DNA of 20,000 nt from Chiloscyllium plagiosum. Lineage: Eukaryota. How positions within the stretch are numbered: the stretch's first letter is position 1; every line of letters starts with the position of its first letter. The DNA lies in the NCBI RefSeq assembly GCF_004010195.1, contig NC_057717.1:103918177-103938176 (forward strand), written 5' to 3'. Under the pieces are notes generated by a model. The model was not told the origin of the DNA, made no database searches, and worked only from the letters and a program-made list of their open reading frames with translations. A program made the position numbers and the translations under genes. This document shows positions 504 to 20,000 of this stretch, in pieces.

Positions 504-891
504 AACAAACGTTGGAGTTTGACTGTATCCAGCAAGCAAACCAAAGGACATTCTTAAGTGTACAAGATTATATTTATATATATTTGAGGCACCAGGAGGG
601 TCCAATGCATTAAAGCCCCACCAATTTATCTTTGGCCACTTTCCTTATGTGGGTGGCTTGCTATCAACTCTTGCTCAATAGCATTTTGCTAAAGCATCTT
701 ACGACTTTAAAGTTGTTACATAAATACAAAAAAAAGTAATTTTATTTTATATCCCAGGAGCGTAGACGTGTGTTTAAATTGATTAAATAATATCAGTTGT
801 ACCCTATGGAGTTCCCGATTGCAGTGGGACTGAAACACACACCTAAATGAATTGCAGGTACCCTGCTCCAGGTGTGCTATCTGGAAGCGCC

Positions 892-1086
892 CTGGGGGTT
901 GTAGTCCGGAGCAGTCCACAGACTACATTTCCCGGCGTGCAAGGGGGAGGAGCTCACTGGGAGTTGTAGGCCGGAGTGTACCTGAGACTACATTTCCCGG
1001 CATGCAAGGGGAAGGTGCCCACTGGGTGTTGTAGGCCTGAGTATCCCGGAGACTACATTTCCCGGCGTGCAACGGGGGCGGCGGTC
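892..1086. repeat. Three tandem diverged 65-bp units
   Basis: The GACTACATTT anchor recurs at exactly 65-bp spacing (921, 986, 1051). Each unit starts CTGGGnGTTGTAG and ends ...CA. Confidence 0.9.
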
Positions 1087-4374: not shown

Positions 4375-4730
4375 GACAAGCCGCACTCCATCCTGACTTG
4401 GGAATATAATTGATGTTCCTTTACTGTCACTGGGTCAAAATCCTGGATCCCTCTTCCTAACAGCTCTGTGGCTGTCCATACACAGGTTTCATCTCTCTCA
4501 GCACCCCCGGCCCACAAGCCCCATTTCTGATGAAGGGCTTATGCCCGAAATGTTGATTCTCTTGCTCCTTGGATGCTGCCTGACCTGCTGTGCTTTTCCA
4601 GCACCACACTCTCGATGGCAGTCCACACACCCCAAGGACTGCACAAAGGCACTGTCCTCTTAAGGGAAATTAAGGAGAGCCAATGAATGCTGGCCCAGCC
4701 AGCAACGCTCTGAATAAATTAGAAAAAAAA
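4375..4730 (+). mobile_element. LINE (CR1/L2 group) 3' end with A-rich tail, interrupted by the 4484-4615 insertion
   Basis: Homologous to 2155-2255; ends caatgaatgctggcccagccagcaacgc...gaataaattagaaaaaaaa. The same tail occurs in reverse at 15512-15580. Confidence 0.65.
4484..4615 (+). mobile_element. 5'-truncated Penelope-like terminal repeat with a hammerhead core and a 15-bp target-site duplication
   Basis: CTGATGA(4527-4533)-A-GGGC-TTAT-GCCC-GAAA(4547-4550)-TG-TT. Flanks TGGCTGTCCATACAC (4469-4483) and TGGCAGTCCACACAC (4616-4630) match at 13/15. Same family as 6952-7080 and 10783-10984. Confidence 0.8.
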
Positions 4731-5912: not shown

Positions 5913-6951
5913 ACATAGAACAGTACAGCACAGAACAGGCCCTTCAGCCCACGGTGTTGTGCCGATCATTGATCCTCGTATATGCACCCTCAAATATCTG
6001 TGACCATATGCATGTCCAGCAGTCTCTTAAATGTCCCCAATGACCCTGCCTCCACAACTGCTGCTGGCAACGCATTCCATGCTCTCACAACTCTCTGTGT
6101 AAAGAACCCACCTCTGACATCCCCTCTATACTTTCCTCCAACCAGCTTAAAACTATGACCCCTCGTGTTAGTCATTTCTGCCCTGGGAAATAGTCTCTGG
6201 CTATCGACTCTATCTATGCCTCTCATTACCTTGTATACCTCAATTAGGTCCCCTCTCCTCCTCCTTTTCTCCAATGAAAAAAGTCCGAGCTCAGTCAACC
6301 TCTCTTCATAAGATAAGCCCTCCAGTCCAGGCAGCATCCTGGTAAACCTCTTCTGAACCCTCTCCAAAGCATCCACATCTTTCCTATAATAGGGCGACCA
6401 GAACTGGACGCGGTATTCCAAGTGCGGTCTAACCAAAGTTTTATAAAGCTCCAACAAGATCTCACGACTCTTAAACTCAACCTCCTGTTAATGAAAGCCA
6501 AAACACCATATGCTTTCTTTACAAACCTGTCCACTTGGGTGGCTATTTTAAGGGATCTATGTACCTGCACACCAAGATCCCTCTGTTCCTCCACACTGCC
6601 AAGAATCCTACTCTCAGCCCATCTCTGCATCCTGTCAATGTCCTGCTGCAGCCTACAACAGCCCTCTATACGGTCACCGACACCTCCAACCTTTGTGTCG
6701 TCTGCAAACTTGCTGACCCATCGTCCAATCCCCTCATCCAAGTCATTAATAAAATTACAAACAGTAGAGGCCCAAGGACAGAGCCCTGTGGAACATCACT
6801 CACCACTGACTTCCAGACAGAATATTTTCCTTCTACTACCACTCGCTGTCTTCTGTTGGCCAGCCAATTCTGTATCCAGACAGCTAAGTTCCCCTGTATC
6901 CCATTCCTCCTGACCTTCTAAATGAGCCTACCATGGGGAACCTTATCAAAT
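5913..6951 (-). mobile_element. 5'-truncated CR1 LINE, RT C-terminal region with a frameshift and an internal deletion
   Basis: ORF-track peptides SKFADDTK and LYKTLVRPHLEYRVQFWSP...LERVQKRFTRMLPGL...FFTQRVVRAWNALP. 3' tail at 5913; internal deletion near 6610. Confidence 0.95.
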
Positions 6952-7080
6952 GGAAAAATGAGGACTGCAGATGCTGGAGGGCAGAGTCGAGAGTGTGGTG
7001 CTGGAAAAGCACAGCAGGGTCAGGCAGCATCCGAGGAGCAGGAGAATCGACGTTTCAGGCAGGAGCCCTTCTTTAGGAAT
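6952..7080 (-). mobile_element. Penelope-like terminal repeat including the tail, with a degenerate hammerhead at 7044-7080
   Basis: Minus strand ATTC-CTAAAGA-A-GGGC-TCCT-GCCT-GAAA-CG-TC-GATT; reverse-complement homologue of 4523-4615. Confidence 0.8.
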
Positions 7081-7477: not shown

Positions 7478-8781
7478 GAAGTGGTGTGCAGGTTGTTGGA
7501 GGGGATTCTGACAGATAACATTTACATGCATTTGGAAAAGCAAGGACTGATTAGGGATAGTCAACATGGGGCTTTGTGGGTGGGAAATCATCTCTCAAAT
7601 TTGATTGAGTTGTTTGGTGTGGTAACAAAGAGGATTGATGTGGGCAGAGTGGTGGACATCTCTATATGGTCTTAGGGAGGCGTTGGACAAGCTTATTTAT
7701 GGTAGACTGGTTAACAAGGTTACATCACATGGAATACAGGGAGAACGAGCCATTTGGATGCAACATTGGCTTGAAGGCAGGAGACAGAGGGTGGTGGTGG
7801 ACAGGGGTTTTCACACTGGAGCCCTGTAACCAGTAGTATTTGTCATTTATATAAATGATTTGGATGTGAACATAGGAGGTATAGTTAGTAAATTTGCAGA
7901 CGACACTTACATTGGAGCTTTAGTGGACAGTACACAACGGGACCTTGATCAGATGGGCCAATGGACCGAGAACTGGCAGGTGGACTTTAATTTAGATAAA
8001 TGTGGGGTGCTGCATTTTGGAAAGGCAAATCAGGGCAGGCTGTATACATTTAATGGTAAGGTCCTGGGGAATGTTGCTGAACAAAAACACCTTGGAGTGC
8101 AGGTTCATAGCTCCTTGAAAGTAGGACAGGACAGTGAAGAAAGTGTTTGTGTGCTTGCCTCTATTGTTCAGTGCTTTGAGTACAGGAGTTGGGATGTCAG
8201 ATTGCAGCTATACAGGACATTGGTTAAAACACTTTCGGAATACTGCATGCAATTCTGGTCTCTCTGTTGTAGGGAAGTTGTTGTGAAACTTGAAAGGGTT
8301 CAGAAAAGATTTCCAAGGATGTTGCCAGGGTTGGAGGGTTTGAGCTACAGGGAGAGGCTGAACAGGCTGGGGCTGTTTTCCCTGGAGCATTGGAGGCTGA
8401 GGGGTGATGTTATAGAGGTTTATAAAATCATGAGGGGCATGGATAGCGTAAATGGACAAGGTCTTTTCTCCAAGGTGGGAGGAATCTAAAACTAGAGGAC
8501 GCAAATATAAGGTGAGAGGAGAAAGATTTAAAAAGAGAACTGAAGGGCAACTTTTTCACGTAGAGAGTGGTGTGTGTGTGTGGAAAGAGCTGCCAGAGGA
8601 AGTGGTGGAGGCTGATACAATTACAACATCTGGATGGGGACATGAACAGGAAGAGTTTAGAGGGATATGGGCCAAATACTGGCAAATCAGACTAGATAAA
8701 TTTAGGATATCTGGTTGGCACGGATGAGTTGGCTCGAAGGATTTGTTTTTGTGCTATCCGCCTCTATAACTCTACGACTAA
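7478..8781 (+). mobile_element. 5'-truncated, degraded CR1 LINE (RT domain to 3' tail)
   Basis: Peptides LIRDSQHG, WLEGRRQRVVV, SKFADDT and LERVQKRFPRMLPGL; ends in a ctctataactctacgact tail. Confidence 0.95.
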
Positions 8782-9416: not shown

Positions 9417-9714
9417 CTGTTGACAGAATGGGGACACATCCTTTCAAAAACACACTCTCGCTTGCACTGAAAACTCAGTAACAGGTTGACACAGGGAAGC
9501 CTGCGGATCACGAGTGAGTGTAATCTCCAAGGCACAACATGCTTGTTTGATAAGAAGTCCAATGAGCAAGTTTTTTTCTTTTATATTGTCAATAGTTCTT
9601 ATCCCTGAAACCATAAACCCTCACTTGTGTGACCCCACACTCAGCCAGCCTTACAACCCTCCGCGGACCCGCACTCCTCAGATTATGGTCTCCCCGTTGT
9701 TTCAATATTAGTGG

Positions 9715-9918
9715 TCCCCCTCAGTTTCCAAGCTCCTAAATGCTGTGGAATTTCCCCCACAAACTTCTCCACCTCACCTTTCCTTAACATCCTCTCTGAC
9801 CTCTATTTTGGGCAGCTGTTGTTACAACACACAGGGCTTGGTGTTTGAGAATGCTCCAGTGACGTGTCTGGGACATTTTAACTACATTAAAGATGCTTTG
9901 TCAATGAAAGCTATTGTT
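9715..9918 (+). mobile_element. Old L2-like LINE 3' remnant
   Basis: Ends gtgacgtgtctgggacattttaactacattaaagatgctttgtcaatgaaagctattgtt, resembling the L2/DeuSINE-type tail as recalled. Confidence 0.45.
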
Positions 9919-10629
9919 CATTCATATAGGCCCCATGTTTTGCTATCCATTCCAGTTGGTTGTAACTGTAAGTAAATTATTTTCATGCTGGCTTTTTAAG
10001 TATGCCTCTGCCTCATAACAATTTTAATTAAAAATAGGCATTGCAAGACAATTGCACAGACGCCCAGATTCTGGATGAACAGAGTTTAAGAGTGCACCGC
10101 CTTCTGCTTTTATTTCAGTTTACAGATTCAGAGACATGTCTACTCCCAAAATGCAAGGAATTCCGAGCATGTGAGGTGTAATTACACTCAAGGCATAAAC
10201 AGATGAGGAAAGAGTTCACGGACTGAAAACTTTATTAGCTGCAACGTAGCACCTACCCTTGTTGCAACGTTTAATGGATTGTGAGGGATCTCTCGTGTGA
10301 TAATATTTCACATTGGAAGGAGGGAGACTCCAGGGAGACAAAGCTGTAATTTGGGGGAGTTAAGCATTTCACTGTAATGAACAGCACCCAGCTATATACT
10401 TGGCGAATTTACTTCAAACCCCTCCAAGATTGAAATGATTATGCAAAAGCTAAATAATATGCGAGAATTCTGAAATAAAGCAAGGCAGAATCCAAGAGAT
10501 TCTTCTGGTCTGTCCTACTAGCTGGGATATTTCAGAAGAAACACGGAACAATTTAATGCATAGGAGACTGTTCACCATTTCCATTCATTACTCTCCCACA
10601 TCACTCAGTAACATGAGCTTCCAGCCCAG

Positions 10630-10760
10630 CCTGAGCTTGAACCCCAAACCAGAGACACGAGTGATAAGGTAGGCAGCGCTCCAGTCCAGTGCTGAAGGAA
10701 TGACGCAGTGTTGGAGGTACCATCCGTTCGATGAGATGTTAAACTGAGCTCAATCCACTG
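10630..10760 (+). mobile_element. DeuSINE-type core fragment
   Basis: cagtgctgaaggaatgacgcagtgttggaggtaccatccgttcgatgagatgttaaactgag resembles the Deu-domain core. Confidence 0.55.
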
Positions 10761-10782
10761 CAACCTGACACAAGTGAGAAAC

Positions 10783-10984
10783 TGGGAGACACTGAGGTCT
10801 GCAGACGTTGGAGATCAGAGTTGAGAGTGTGCTGCTGGAAAAGCACAGCAGGTCAAGCAGCATCCGAGGAGCAGGAGAATCGACATCTCGGGCCAGAACC
10901 CTTTCCTGATGAAGGGGTCTGGTCTGATCTCCTGCTCCTCGGATGCTGCCTGACCTGCTGTGCTTTGCCAGCAACACACTCTCA
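10783..10984. mobile_element. Palindromic Penelope-derived mini-element with a perfect 13-bp TSD
   Basis: Arms at about 10820-10903 and 10906-10986 are inverted repeats; CTGATGA at 10906-10912; unpaired tail 10783-10819. ACAAGTGAGAAAC occurs at both 10770-10782 and 10985-10997. Confidence 0.85.
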
Positions 10985-11029
10985 ACAAGTGAGAAACCGT
11001 ATGGATGCGAAGCAATAATGAAGAAAAGG

Positions 11030-11260
11030 AACAAAGACAGAAATTGCTGGAGAAACTCAGCAGGTCTGGCACCATCTGTGCAGGGAAAGCAGAGTTACTG
11101 TTCGGGTCGAGCGACCCTTCATCAGAACCGGGTCACCGGACTCGAAATGTGAATGTTGTTTCTCTTTCCACAGATGCTAACAGACCTGCAGAGTTTCTCC
11201 AGCAAATTCTGTTTTTGTTTCCGATTTCCAGCATCTGCAGTTCTTTGATTTTAATCTTAA
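11030..11260. mobile_element. Palindromic Penelope-derived mini-element, second family
   Basis: Arms at about 11030-11125 and 11130-11220. Minus-strand CTGATGA(11125-11119)-A-GGGTC-GCTC-GACCC-GAAC. Unpaired tail about 11221-11256. Possible decayed TSD 11013-11029 vs 11261-11277 (12/17). Confidence 0.8.
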
Positions 11261-11576
11261 CAATAACAAATAGAACGTGTTCTCCTATCGTTAGAGTGAC
11301 TTTCTCAGAGCGGAACCTTCCACTTGGGTCAGTCAAGCTGAGAATCTGATGTGGGAATAGGGAGATGGAAGGCAATGATGTCCAGACACCAAAAGAATGG
11401 TGGACTGGGGCATGCACGTCGAGTCATCGAGCTGTACAGCATGGAAGCAGATCCATTGATCCAACTCATCCAGGCTGACCAGGTATTTGCTGCGCCACCT
11501 CATACCATAACTATCACATGAATACCACCAAATGGTCAGCACTCTGATAAGCAGGAATGATATCATGACTTCTTAC

Positions 11577-12267: not shown

Positions 12268-12607
12268 TCAGGTGCAGCATGTTTATACAGCAACGTGCTT
12301 CTCATCTTCCAATTGTCACACAATTCCAGCTATATGTCAAGCACAGACCCCACAATGGAATGATGAACACAAGAAACATAATTGCCCCTTATCTCATAGG
12401 TCCCAGCTCTTAACTGTTATACAGAGAAATACAGAGAGTTTGAGCTGCAGTGGCTAACCACTCCAACAACGGTACAAGGTCAAAAAACACTGAGCAATCA
12501 GTGAACATTGGCCCAAACATCTACGATTTCCATAACTATAAAACGCTAACGGTTTTCACTGTTTATATAATTAAACGCTGCATTTGATTATCTCTTACCT
12601 TCAGAAT

Positions 12608-14383
12608 TAACAGCAGGGTACAGGAGGTAAAGGATATTGTATCAATAACAGCAGGGTACAGGAGGTAAAGGATGGTGTATCAGTAACAGCAGGGTACAGG
12701 AGGTAAAGGATGGTGTATCGATAACAGCAGGGAACAGGAGGTAAAGAACGGTGTATCAGTAACAGCAGGGTACAGGTGGTAAAGGAGGCTGTATCGATAA
12801 CAGCAGGGTACAGGAGGTAAACGAGGCTGTATCGATAACAGCAGGGTACAGGAAGTAAAGGAGGCTGTATCAGTAACAGCAGGGTACAGGAGGTAAAGGA
12901 TGGTGTATCGATAACAGCAGGGTACAGGTGGTAAAGGAGGCTGCATCGATAACAGCAGGGTACAGGAGGTAAAGGATGGTGTATCAGTAACAGCAGGGTA
13001 CAGGAGGTAAAGGATGGTGTATCGATAACAGCAGGGTACAATGGGTAAAGGATCGTGTATCAGTAACAGCAGGGTACAGGAGGTAAAGGATGGTGTATCA
13101 GTAAGAGCAGGGTACAATAGGTAAAGGATGGTGTATCAGTAATAGCAGGGTACAGGAGGTAAAGGAGGCTGCATCGATAACAGCAGGGTACAGGAGGTAA
13201 AGGATGGTGTATCAATAACAGCAGGGTACAGGAGGTAAAGGAGGCTGTATCAGTAACAGGAGGTAAAGGAGGCTGTATTGAAAACAGCAGAGTACAGGAG
13301 GTAAAGGATGGTGTATTGATAACAGCAGGGTACAGGAGGTAAAGGAGGCTGTATTGATAACAGCCGGGCACAGGAGGGAAAGGATGGTGTATCGATAACA
13401 GCAGGGTACATGAGGTAAAGGAGGATGTTTTGATAACAGCAGAGTACAGGAGGTAAAGGATGGTGTATTGATAACAGCAGGGTACAGGAGGTAAAGGATG
13501 GTGTATCAGTAACAGCAGGATACAGGAGGTAAAGGATGGTGTATCTGTCACAGCAGGGTACAGGAGGTAAAGGATGGTGTATCGATAGCAGCAGAGTACA
13601 GGAGGTAAAGGATAGTGTATCAGTAACAGCAGGGTACAGGAGGGTTAGGACGGTGTATCAGGAACAGCAGGGTACAGGAGGTAAAAGATTGTGTATCGAT
13701 AACAGCAGGGTACAGGAGGTAAAGGAGGCTGTATCGATAACAGCAGGGTACAGGAGGTAAAGGATTGTGTATCGATAACAGCAGGGTACAGGAGGTAAAG
13801 GAGGCTGTATCGATAACAGCAGGGTACAGGAGGTAAAGGATGGTGTATCAGTAACAGCAGGGTACAAGAGGTCAAGGAGGCTGTATCGATAACAGCAGGG
13901 TGCAGGAGGTAAAGGATGGTGTATCGATAACAGCAGGGTACAGGAGGTAAAGGATGGTGTATCAGTAACAGCAGGGTTACAATAGGTAAAGGATGGTGTA
14001 TCGATAACGGCAGGGTACAGGAGGTAAAGGATGGTGTATCAGTAACAGCAGGGTATACGAGGTAAAGGATGGTGTATCAGTAACAGCAGGGGACAGGAGG
14101 TAAAGGATATTGTATCAATAACAGCAGAGTACACGAGGTAAATGATGGTGTATCAGTAACAGCAGGGTACAGGAGGTAAAGGATGGTGTATCAGTAACAG
14201 CAGGGTACAGGAGGTAAAGGATGCTGTATCGATAACGGCAGGGTACAGGAGGTAAAGGATGGTGTATCGATAACAGCAGGGTACAGGAGGTACAGGAGGC
14301 AGTATCAATAACAGCAGAGTACACGAGGTTAAGGATGGTGTATCAGTAACAGCAGGGTACAGGAGGTAAAGAATGTTGTATCA
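12608..14383. repeat. 38-bp minisatellite, about 47 units: AACAGCAGGGTACAGGAGGTAAAGGA(TGG/GGC)TGTATC(GA/AG)T
   Basis: Period 38 (CAGCAGGGTA at 12611, 12649, 12687). No unique spacers; one shortened unit near 13255. Confidence 0.99.
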
Positions 14384-15099
14384 TGAACCAGGTGATACTT
14401 GCCCAGTGTCATTTGCAAGGAAAGTGAAAGAAGACAGATTTCCCTGACAACCAGACACATGGCCATTCGCAGTCATGTATGCATCAAACGTACAACCCCT
14501 TACACTGCTTCCTCTAATAGGAATTAACCCTCGGTCATAGCAGCCCATTAGCCAGCGTTGTTCACATGCTTATCTCATACAGTGGGGAGGAAACATACTG
14601 TCAGAGCACCAAGGATAGATGGCTGGTCTAAAATACAAGGCCTCAGAGACTGACAATTCACCCCGGGATTGGAAATTAAGAAACAATGTGTGTCACGGGG
14701 CAGTTGTTGGAAGTTCAGCCCAGTGTCCCTACTGTTTGAGAGCAGCTTGTCAGGGTTTTGGCAATCAAGCAAACCTGTGTTCGAGACAGCCCAGCCTTTT
14801 CGGTTACACTGGCTGGAAAGGACAGAACCAGTTGCAACAAGCAGCTAGAAATGAAAAGCTCACTGTACATATATAAGCTCTCGAAGATGGAAATCTAATC
14901 TGGTGACTACAGAAGTCACTACTGAAACATTAATGGAATGGAATTGAATGAATACACTACAGTGGTCCAAAGGCAGCTCACCTTAAGAGTAATTAAGGAG
15001 GGATAGCCAACCAGTGAAGCCCACATCCCAGGAGGGAAAGTTTTTAAAAATCAACTGGTCAACAGTAGGGCTGATGTTTACAGTAGAATAAGTACTCTG

Positions 15100-16347: not shown

Positions 16348-17121
16348 ATATTGTATTCCTGTTTGAGTTTTGTCTTGTCTGGTTTCTCCGTGTGACGATT
16401 ATGATGTTTGGTGATCAGAATCACGTGAAAGGTCAGTAAGAAAAACACACACTCAAATAAAAAATCATCTGCCAACAAGAATCTTGTCGCAATTTCAGAA
16501 GAGTGGCTATTTTTAAATCAGCTGACATCTGGTGTGTGATAAACGACGAGAAAACTTCCCAACTCTGCCTTGACATATTAGCTTTGGCTCAGTTTGATGA
16601 TCACAGCATGAGCAAGTCACCGTCACAACCCCTGCAAGCCACCTTAGCTCAATCAAGACAGTGTCTGTAACTGAAACGGTTACTGGCAGCGCACTGCAGC
16701 CATACTCTGTGCACTTTTCCACTTATTAAATACAAAAGGCAACAGCTGAATGGCATGAACTGAAATCAGTTAGATGCACATCAACTAATGCAGTCTCTGG
16801 TGCGGCTTTTCATTTACAAAATAAAAATGAACAATCTGACAGGGCACAGGAGTCCCATATTAATCTCCATTGTATCAGATTCACCTCTTGCAAAAAAAAC
16901 CGTCCAAGCGTTAAAGCCACAATGCTCAAGATGTGTAATTTTATTTCAAGAACATTAATTTTTTAAAAATCTAAAAGACTTCACTAATAGAATGAAACCT
17001 GTTCTACTGCAAAGAGGGAAGCATAATCCATCTTTTGTACCGTGTCGGAAACGTTGCATCACTCGGGCCTTGGAGTGGCTGCTGGAACCCCTACTGGAAT
17101 GCACTGCTTTCACTGACAGTG

Positions 17122-17320
17122 ATGTGGAGGTGTCAGCGTTGGACTGGGGTGGACAAAGTTAAAAATCACAGGACACCAAACAGGTTTATTTGGAAGCACT
17201 AGCTCTCAGAGCGCTGCTCCTTCGTCAAGTAGCTCCCTGATGAAGGAGCGGCGCTCCGAAAGCTAGTGCTTCCAAATAAACCTGTTGGACTATAACCTGG
17301 TGCAGTGTGATTTTTAACTT
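17122..17320. mobile_element. Palindromic Penelope-derived mini-element, third family, with an intact hammerhead core and a TSD
   Basis: Arms at about 17156-17228 and 17237-17320; tail 17122-17155. CTGATGA-A-GGAGC-GGC-GCTCC-GAAA-GC-TA at 17237-17265. TTCACTGACAGTG (17109-17121) vs TTCAATGACAGTG (17319-17331), 12/13. Confidence 0.85.
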
Positions 17321-17470
17321 CAATGACAGTGGAAGGTCATGTTCAACCTTCACAGAGGCAAGTAGATCGATATTTGAAAGGCAGAAATATGCCCGGCTAG
17401 GAATGGAGGAGTGGGATGAATCAGAAAGTGCAAGCCCGTTAGGTTGAATGGCCTGTACTCTATGATTCTA
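17321..17470 (+). mobile_element. Old CR1 3' remnant
   Basis: tagatcgatatttgaaaggcagaaatatg...aggttgaatggcctgtactctatgattcta, similar to 8860-8985. Confidence 0.5.
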
Positions 17471-18890: not shown

Positions 18891-19793
18891 TAAAGTGAGG
18901 CAGAAACCAGGCAGATGGGAGCAACGGTTGCTCTCCAACACAGGGAAAAATCCTTGTCATCAGGTGTGAGGTCCTCTCAGTGTTGTTATATGTGGTACAG
19001 GTCTGGCCTACTCCCCGAACCTGCACTGCTGCAGTCACCCGGGACATCTTCCATTTTACGTGGAGATCAAAGATGAACCATGTCCAAAGGGAAACACTGT
19101 ACACAGAACTAGCAAAAGTGGGGAGAAAAAACACCACCCAATGCCACCGTCACCCTGATGGCCACCTTTGTGTGTGGCTGCATCAAGCTGTGCATGGAAC
19201 CCACGGTACATAAACACTAAGTGTCACTAGTACTGAAGTTCTATCTTTCCCCGATAGTGCAAAGGATGGGCCTGGTCTCGTTGCCATGGAACGTGCCAAG
19301 TAGTTGGACTGTTCCTTATCAATTGTCCCTTGTGGAGAAATTTGTGAAGAAAAAGCCCTTTGACCACACCATCACACCCACTCCAGGTACTGGCTCCGAC
19401 CCCACTCCCAGCTCTACACCCGTTGCCATGGAACGTGCCAAGTAGTTGGACTGTTCCTTATCAATTGTCCCTTGTGGAGAAATTTGTGAAGAAAAACCCC
19501 TTTGACCACAAGTCCATCAGGAAGTGGTCAGCATGGAGTGTCCTTGAGACCCTTCGGGAAAAGGAGAGGGCGGATCCTGTCGAGTGGTTCCCTGGGCAGA
19601 CTGTCAAAGCCATTTGGCAGAATGCCTCATCGCCAGAACTTTCTAACATGTACCAAGACATGGCTTGGCTGGTGGTGAGAAGGGCTCTGCCTGTGAGATC
19701 CTTTATGCACGCCCGGACTCTCAGCTGCACCGCACGCTGCCCTGAAGCGGCTGCGGGGGGGACAAGACTGTCACACACCTCCTTCTGGAATGC
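18891..19793 (+). mobile_element. Tx1/L1-clade LINE ORF2 C-terminal remnant (post-RT region and zf-RVT-like zinc knuckle), frameshifted
   Basis: Peptides KVRQK.GRWEQR.LS..GK, LVIRCEVLSVLLYV.QVWP, IFHFTWRSKM, IWQNASSPELSN..QD.AWLVVRRALPVR and ARCP...TVTHLLLEC, read across frameshifts. Confidence 0.85.
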
Positions 19794-20000
19794 GCCCCCA
19801 TTCCCCCCACCATCACACCCACTCCAGGTACTGGCTCCGACCCCACTCCCAGCTCTACACCCCCACCAGCTCCCAGCCCTGCCGAGTTTTCACCATCCCC
19901 CCAGACCTCCCCCTCACTGAGGATGAACGATCAGTCCTCAGCAAAGGACTCACCTTTGTCCCCCTCCGTCCACGCACCAATGAATTTAATACACGCCGTG
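19794..20000 (+). mobile_element. Penelope-like element coding region (N-terminal to the RT core), running off the window
   Basis: The frame from 19862 translates PTSSQPCRVFTIPPDLPLTEDERSVLSKGLTFVPLRPRTNEFNTRR with no stop. LxxxExxVLxKGLxFxP is the conserved N-terminal motif of PLE reverse transcriptases. Confidence 0.75.

What the first reader, a model, noticed from the sequence alone, without database searches (positions are those of the whole stretch)
10770..10997. Fold-back mini-element inserted as one unit with a perfect 13-bp TSD
Seen: inverted arms of about 83 bp, a 37-nt one-sided tail and ACAAGTGAGAAAC on both sides. A long TSD together with an asymmetric end argues against a cut-and-paste MITE and for a single target-primed retro-insertion. 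Established: Penelope insertions often include an inverted terminal copy and a tail of roughly 30-40 nt. Inference: either minimal PLE integration products or self-propagating non-autonomous hairpin retroelements.
Basis: partly seen in the sequence, partly recalled or inferred. Interest (0 to 1): 0.7.

Follow-up and report, generated by a model that had tools for sequence, protein, structure and literature searches.

The report
Fold-back Penelope retroelement stub in shark
This small hairpin-shaped insertion in a shark gene's intron is real, but it is an ordinary dead stub of a Penelope-like jumping gene: two head-to-head copies of the element's ribozyme-bearing end, most likely built at the moment of insertion.

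Summary
A 13-bp direct repeat (10770-10782/10985-10997; 15 bp in another allele) brackets a hairpin (69/75 pairs, z -14.5) with a 35-37-nt one-sided tail, in an slc27a1 intron of a shark. The arms belong to a very abundant repeat family. Its majority sequence carries an intact minimal hammerhead ribozyme of the Penelope-like (PLE) type; both copies at this locus are decayed. An inverted copy, an optional 30-40-nt tail, a variable TSD and this hammerhead are all published PLE insertion features. Propagation as a hairpin unit is not supported. At most 8 RNA reads could cross this junction, against 1,673 on the arm. Other fold-backs show differing junctions, and a solo copy in the window has its own 15-bp TSD. 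One useful detail: each arm holds sequence the other lacks (tail versus hammerhead head), which simple snap-back cannot make. This suggests two separately primed cDNAs, or a later deletion. The autonomous partner ORF and an empty site were not found. The scan has reported the same pattern on other pieces of this genome. Verdict: new member of a known kind, low interest.

The parts
10770..10782 (.). Left target-site duplication (13 bp exact; probably extends to 10784, 15 bp)
   Evidence: allele with T at 10998 in run X1
10783..10819 (-). 3' 'tail' of the PLE end (family-derived from about 10785, 35 nt), present on one arm only
   Evidence: 10793-10819 matches the solo copy at 6959 (D11); paralogous contigs start at 10781-10786 (table 8)
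10820..10903 (-). Tail-bearing arm (element sense on -). Starts inside the hammerhead, after the CUGAUG core; its GAAA and cleavage triplet are mutated
10904..10911 (+). Unpaired loop: head of the inverted arm, holding most of the hammerhead CUGAUGA core; absent from the other arm
10903..10986 (+). Inverted, tail-less arm (element sense on +). Hammerhead remnant at 10906-10927, with a 9-nt deletion between 10927 and 10928 that removes the rest of GAAA, helix III and the cleavage site
   Evidence: intact majority form in loose ends at 10928
10985..10997 (.). Right target-site duplication (to 10999 if 15 bp); overlaps the arm end by 2 nt
11030..11253 (+). Second fold-back of a related subfamily: tail on the right, the tail-less arm holds the hammerhead head; no TSD found
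   Evidence: (I7); centre covered by contigs of X1 and X10
17109..17331 (-). Third fold-back of a more distant family: 34-nt tail on the left, near-intact minimal hammerhead at 17237-17261, TSD 12/13 with 2-nt overlap
   Evidence: (I6, I15)
4469..4630 (+). Solo, tail-less copy of the same family (4484-4615), running 43 nt further upstream of the hammerhead, with its own 15-bp TSD (13/15)
6955..7079 (-). Solo, tail-bearing copy of the same family ending just upstream of the hammerhead core; no TSD found
9480..11550 (-). Host intron of slc27a1 (long-chain fatty acid transport protein 1); bounds approximate
   Evidence: tblastn pieces 11694-11548 and 9483-9235; best hits are shark proteins at 94% and 93%

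Best explanation
This is a dead-on-arrival, one-step insertion of the terminal (pLTR) segment of an endonuclease-bearing Penelope-like retrotransposon, in an slc27a1 intron of a shark. Shown: two head-to-head copies of one subfamily's hammerhead-to-tail segment, tail on one copy only, bounded by a 13-15-bp duplication, with both hammerheads decayed; the insertion is older than the split of organisms A and B. Inferred mechanism: the PLE RT/GIY-YIG protein nicks both strands about 13-15 bp apart. Each 3' end primes its own cDNA from one of the two internal RT start sites (with tail and without tail). Both cDNAs run toward the RNA's 5' end just upstream of the hammerhead and are joined head to head through a 1-nt overlap. 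The hairpin is therefore made anew at insertion and not copied as a unit. Within this explanation I put twin priming at about 55%, a symmetric or snap-back product with a later central deletion at about 30%, and other routes at the rest.
For: Minimal hammerhead: loose ends before 10928 read the core CUGAUGA or CUGAAGA (first C not in the 30-nt readout), an extra A, a 4-bp stem II, GAAA and the palindrome ACGU in 810 (X1), 728 (X10), 290 (X21) and 137 (X19) records. This fits the features in PMC4209133. The three window families have different stem II sequences that all pair, and helix-III palindromes ACGT or AGCT. Optional tail: two 3' end positions among solo copies (4615 without tail, 6955 with tail), and tail-bearing loose ends at 10978 in 235 RNA reads; this matches the two RT start sites of PAc, which extends both nicked strands (PMC11167929). 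Inverted pLTR plus tail plus 8-10-bp TSD are described in PMC3846280 and PMC8557442. De novo formation: at 10902, which any junction-crossing record must cover, depth is 1,093 (X1) and 1,457 (X10) against 3.55 and 5.38 million at 10856. In raw RNA it is 25 reads (17 with another letter) against 1,673. Seven of the 15 joints shown link left to right arm, each at a different pair of places. Reciprocal asymmetry is seen in 2 of 3 window fold-backs.
Against: No PLE RT or GIY-YIG ORF was linked to the family: 0 of 132 window ORF pieces hit GIY-YIG, the protein search found none, and no genome is held. No empty site was seen; organism B carries the left junction and has no depth at 10998. TSDs were found in only 3 of 6 window copies and are longer than the 8-10 bp in PMC3846280. 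One paralogous junction (10855>10934) has depth 299 in X1, about 26 times single-copy depth, so some junctions are repeated. 1,174 joints were not shown, joints at 80% likeness can be alignment artefacts, and hairpins are probably under-represented in unitigs and short reads. No listed contig spans this locus's own centre.
Confidence: 0.83

Rival explanations
1. A self-propagating non-autonomous hairpin retroelement: the whole fold-back is transcribed and retro-inserted as a unit by PLE proteins.
For: 3 of 6 related copies in 20 kb are fold-backs. One paralogous junction has depth 299 in X1 (2 contigs) and others 84-115 in X10, against 10-12 for single-copy DNA. pLTR sequences act in trans (PMC3846280), and non-autonomous PLE derivatives exist (PMC8557442; bioRxiv 10.64898/2026.07.22.740005).
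Against: This junction is bounded at 1,093 of 3.55 million summed depth and at most 8 of 1,673 RNA reads. Majority loose ends run on through the hammerhead head and then scatter (agreement 0.52-0.58). The shown junctions all differ. A solo arm has its own TSD. No RNA reads lie on the flanks, and only 11 of 3,772 reads are 99%+ alike.
Confidence: 0.08
2. Two independent insertions of this very abundant family landed head to head, or recombination joined two copies, and the flanking repeat belongs to one of them or is chance.
For: The family is extremely abundant (127,020 contigs laid in X1). PLEs tend to insert next to PLEs (PMC6765202). The TSD core resembles the family tail's majority letters.
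Against: One 13-15-bp duplication brackets both arms (chance about 7e-6). Both arms share a minority stem II loop that differs from the solo copies. The same layout recurs at 17109-17331.
Confidence: 0.05
3. A MITE or other cut-and-paste DNA transposon with long terminal inverted repeats.
For: Long inverted arms, small size, no ORF, very high copy number.
Against: The inverted repeat stops 35-37 nt short of the left end. TSDs are 13-15 bp and differ in sequence. Solo arms have their own TSD and variable 5' ends, and the arms carry a PLE-type hammerhead.
Confidence: 0.02
4. An assembly or library fold-back artefact.
For: No listed contig spans the centre of this locus.
Against: The arms differ at 6 of 75 positions plus a 9-nt indel. 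The left junction is present in contigs of two species, and an X1 contig covers 10998.
Confidence: 0.01

Closest known systems
Complex insertions of EN+ Penelope-like elements: inverted pLTR plus tail (Pen2a_Av and relatives, PMC3846280; general scheme in PMC8557442; passages read)
   Same: Head-to-head inverted copy at the 5' side, 30-40-nt tail on one copy only, variable TSD around the whole unit, 5' truncation.
   Different: Here nothing but the two pLTR stubs is present (about 200 nt, no ORF); the TSD is 13-15 bp rather than 8-10; the family is far more abundant.
Poseidon of Anolis carolinensis (PAc; PMC11167929, main text read)
   Same: Hammerhead about 110-120 nt upstream of the tail end, two 3' end positions bounding the tail, and no read pile-up at the hammerhead cut site (table 6: none).
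   Different: PAc is autonomous and tested in vitro, prefers AT-rich ATT targets and has no described twin-primed fold-back product; the target here is not especially AT-rich; the clade of this family is untested.
Minimal hammerheads (min-HHR) of metazoan PLEs (PMC4209133, results and discussion read)
   Same: Extra nucleotide after position 9, G10.1-C11.1 pair, palindromic 15.2-16.2, no helix III loop; that paper also notes pairs on opposite strands 100-700 bp apart.
   Different: Stem II is 4-5 bp rather than 7-8; both copies at this locus are inactivated; sharks are not mentioned in the parts I read.
Non-LTR retrozymes (bioRxiv 10.64898/2026.07.22.740005, parts 1-3 of 5 read)
   Same: Short, non-coding, hammerhead-bearing, derived from PLE pLTRs, reported in one chondrichthyan.
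   Different: Retrozymes are head-to-tail tandems with intact ribozymes; this is a single head-to-head pair with dead ribozymes.

Membership tests
EN+ Penelope-like element | PLE-type RT plus GIY-YIG endonuclease ORF in the autonomous member | tested here: inconclusive
   None in the window (0 of 132 ORF pieces with GIY-YIG); protein search with one frame of the solo copy found none; no genome held.
EN+ Penelope-like element | Minimal type I hammerhead in the terminal repeat | tested here: met
   Intact in the family majority (loose ends, 4 of 4 runs); decayed in both arms here. Rfam gave no hammerhead match. Cleavage not tested.
EN+ Penelope-like element | Optional 30-40-nt 3' tail | tested here: met
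   35-37 nt here, about 34 nt in the two other fold-backs; solo copies with and without it.
EN+ Penelope-like element | Adjacent inverted copy, head to head, at the 5' side | tested here: met
   3 of 6 related copies in the window.
EN+ Penelope-like element | Variable-length TSD confirmed by an empty site | tested here: inconclusive
   13-15-bp repeats in 3 of 6 copies; no empty allele seen, since organism B carries the insertion.
EN+ Penelope-like element | Partial-tandem pLTR-ORF-pLTR arrangement of full-length copies | not testable with these tools
   No assembly of this genome is available.
Non-LTR retrozyme | Head-to-tail tandem units, each with an intact type I hammerhead | tested here: not met
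   One inverted pair, both hammerheads broken.
MITE (class II) | Inverted repeats at both termini and a fixed short TSD | tested here: not met
   One-sided 35-37-nt overhang; TSDs of 13-15 bp with unrelated sequences; solo arm with its own TSD.
Self-propagating hairpin retroelement (hypothetical) | One junction shared by many unlinked copies | tested here: not met
   Depth at 10902 is at most 1,093 against 3.55 million on the arm; 7 of 15 shown joints are arm-to-arm and all differ; 1,174 joints not shown.

The most novel reading that the evidence does not exclude
A minority of these fold-backs, made de novo by twin-primed reverse transcription, later became self-propagating hairpin units mobilised in trans by the PLE protein: a hairpin-shaped, SINE-like class of non-autonomous PLE. 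The repeated paralogous junction (depth about 26 times single copy in X1) is the only hint; this particular copy shows no sign of being such a unit.
Probability: 0.1. Interest if true: 0.6.

Novelty: new member of a known kind. Interest (0 to 1): 0.22.

Why it matters
The locus itself is an old, decayed intronic insertion with no sign of function. Its value is as one data point in a very large natural set of PLE integration products. How PLEs form inverted pLTRs and tails is described as unresolved (PMC8557442). Here each arm carries sequence the other lacks, so the snap-back and twin-priming models make different, countable predictions in shark assemblies. It also warns annotators that these hairpins can pass as MITEs or microRNA precursors: Rfam's best matches were sub-threshold miRNA models.

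Tried and rejected
Own-genome analysis was not possible: no genome held. Rfam: 12 matches up to E 5, none at gathering score and no hammerhead family; the miRNA hits reflect only the hairpin. Pattern scans of viral contigs found 0 and 0. Metagenome (5 loci) and prokaryote genome (3 loci) hits were 22-38-nt chance matches without further homology; the two I read are bacterial-type coding DNA. A protein search with one reading frame of the solo copy gave 1 candidate and none significant (weak evidence). Pfam on 132 of 140 ORF pieces (8 left out) gave no GIY-YIG; two sub-cutoff RVT_1 hits lie elsewhere. An in-silico empty site matched no other window sequence usefully, so colinearity of the flanks with an older repeat is untested. 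Expression: no RNA holder was listed; in about 2% of one RNA run no reads lay on the flanks and no start or end pile-up was seen, which says nothing firm about this locus. No TSD was found for 3 of 6 copies. Simple snap-back from either first strand was rejected as the sole mechanism, because neither arm contains all of the other. Literature: none listed a paper on shark PLE fold-backs or on twin priming in PLEs by title or abstract start; subscription papers and Repbase are not covered. Lunse et al. (PMC5785218) is not held and was seen only as a reference entry. Supplements of the cited papers were not read, and bioRxiv supplements are closed; they may list shark families.

Full report
Observation. 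The 13-bp direct repeat is exact at 10770-10782 and 10985-10997. Outside tandem or duplicated stretches it is the only exact 13-mer pair 100-400 bp apart in the window, with a chance of about 7e-6 after allowing for boundary choice. It extends to 14 of 15 positions; a contig of run X1 has T at 10998, making 15 of 15 in that allele. Which allele is ancestral is unknown, since organism B has no depth there. The arms pair at 56/59 plus 13/16 positions, with a 9-nt bulge and an 8-nt loop; the fold has z -14.5. The 37-nt tail is real, and paralogues match it from about 10785.

Context. The window holds exons of slc27a1 on the minus strand; the best hits are shark proteins (94% and 93%; next 81-86%) among 972 hits. 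The element lies in the intron between the pieces at 11694-11548 and 9483-9235. Five more related copies lie in the window: fold-backs at 11030-11253 and 17122-17320, and solo arms at 427-502, 4484-4615 and 6955-7079. TSDs were found in 3 of the 6: 13-15 bp here, 12/13 at 17109/17319, and 13/15 at 4469/4616. The last is a solo, tail-less copy that runs 43 nt further upstream, so the arm inserts without folding back.

Family. I laid 4 of the 24 listed runs on 10400-11400 at 80% likeness. 127,020, 114,218, 3,772 and 15,470 records were laid. Summed contig depth is about 10-12 on unique flanks and millions on the arms; the tool warns this is no copy number, but the family is clearly very abundant in three organisms. 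Loose ends before 10928 (810, 728, 290 and 137 records) supply what this copy has lost: the hammerhead core, an extra A, stem II GGGC/GCCC, GAAA and the palindrome ACGT. These are the min-HHR features listed in PMC4209133. The other two window families keep a paired stem II with different sequences (GGGTC/GACCC in the loose ends, GGAGC/GCTCC), and the third has AGCT in helix III. At this locus the left arm lacks the first core half and has GAGA for GAAA, and the right arm has a 9-nt deletion over the cleavage site, so neither strand encodes an intact ribozyme. Loose ends behind 10893 and 10903 continue through the hammerhead head and then scatter (agreement 0.52-0.58), so many copies seem to begin a few bases upstream of the core.

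Unit or de novo? Siblings copied from this hairpin would align straight through its centre. Depth at 10902 is 1,093 (X1) and 1,457 (X10) against 3.55 and 5.38 million at 10856; in raw RNA it is 25 reads, 17 with a different letter, against 1,673. Of 15 joints shown, 7 link left arm to right arm, each at a different pair of places; 1,174 were not shown. Against my reading: one such joint has depth 299 in X1, joints at this likeness may be artefacts, hairpins are probably under-represented in unitigs and short reads (inference), and no listed contig spans this locus's own centre.

Age and expression. An organism B contig covers 10400-10822 (16 other letters, 3 gaps), including the left TSD and tail, so the insertion predates that split and no empty site was seen. 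The centre of the neighbouring fold-back is covered in both species. RNA reads come from the family on both strands; only 11 of 3,772 are 99%+ alike, none lie on the flanks, and no start or end pile-up was found, in about 2% of one run.

Mechanism. Published: PLE insertions often have an adjacent inverted 5'-truncated copy and a 30-40-nt tail (PMC8557442, passages). They show 8-10-bp TSDs and head-to-head palindromic junctions, attributed to self-priming (PMC3846280, passages). The PAc protein nicks and extends both strands and starts reverse transcription at two sites that bound the tail (PMC11167929, main text). Shown here: the left arm has the tail and the right arm has the hammerhead head (10904-10911); the same reciprocal pattern holds at 11030-11253, while both arms have the head at 17122-17320. 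Inference: a snap-back copy can contain only what the first strand contains, so neither polarity gives both extensions. Two cDNAs primed from staggered nicks and joined head to head do; this resembles L1 twin priming (recalled, not read). A later deletion at the hairpin centre is the main alternative, and 2 of 3 cases is weak support.

Membership. It works like, and very probably is, a terminal stub of an EN+ PLE. The hammerhead, tail and inversion tests are met; the TSD lacks an empty site; the RT/GIY-YIG partner could not be shown. MITE and retrozyme tests are not met. Penelope-like elements are reported in all vertebrate lineages, with elephant shark sampled (PMC4350176, passages).

Earlier notes. 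Other windows of this genome gave the same reading. These are unchecked AI notes, read, and are not counted as evidence; a look-up by sequence returned nothing.

Verdict. Real, a new member of a known kind, interest 0.22.

Noticed in passing
window 10772-10784 versus 10790-10800: The TSD contains a 7-base exact match (11 of 13 with one gap) to the family tail's majority letters (other letters at 10790, 10792, 10798). Rough chance is 1-2% and the test is post hoc; it could reflect target preference for tail-like DNA.
   Followed up: partly
window 10985-10986 and 17319-17320: In both TSD-bounded fold-backs the tail-less arm overlaps the TSD by exactly 2 nt, a possible priming microhomology.
   Followed up: partly
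window 10672-10773: The left flank draws paralogous contigs (depth 58-342), so the target is itself an old repeat; it looks like a Deu-domain SINE remnant (label recalled, untested).
   Followed up: no
window about 12500-14400: G- and A-skewed 38-bp minisatellite of about 46 units inside the slc27a1 gene.
   Followed up: no
window 886-1080 and 1770-2058: Three 65-bp repeats and a 20-22-bp array on either side of a run of N.
   Followed up: no
window 5990-6917 (-) and 7830-8489 (+): Decayed LINE reverse-transcriptase pieces (RVT_1 below cutoff); CR1-like by recall.
   Followed up: no
window 10668 and 10998: The window differs from run X1 at these sites; at 10668 X1 and organism B agree against the window.
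   Followed up: no
window 19279-19510 and 18899-19920: A 90-bp duplication at 142-bp spacing within ORF-like sequence that resembles a decayed LINE end (label recalled).
   Followed up: no
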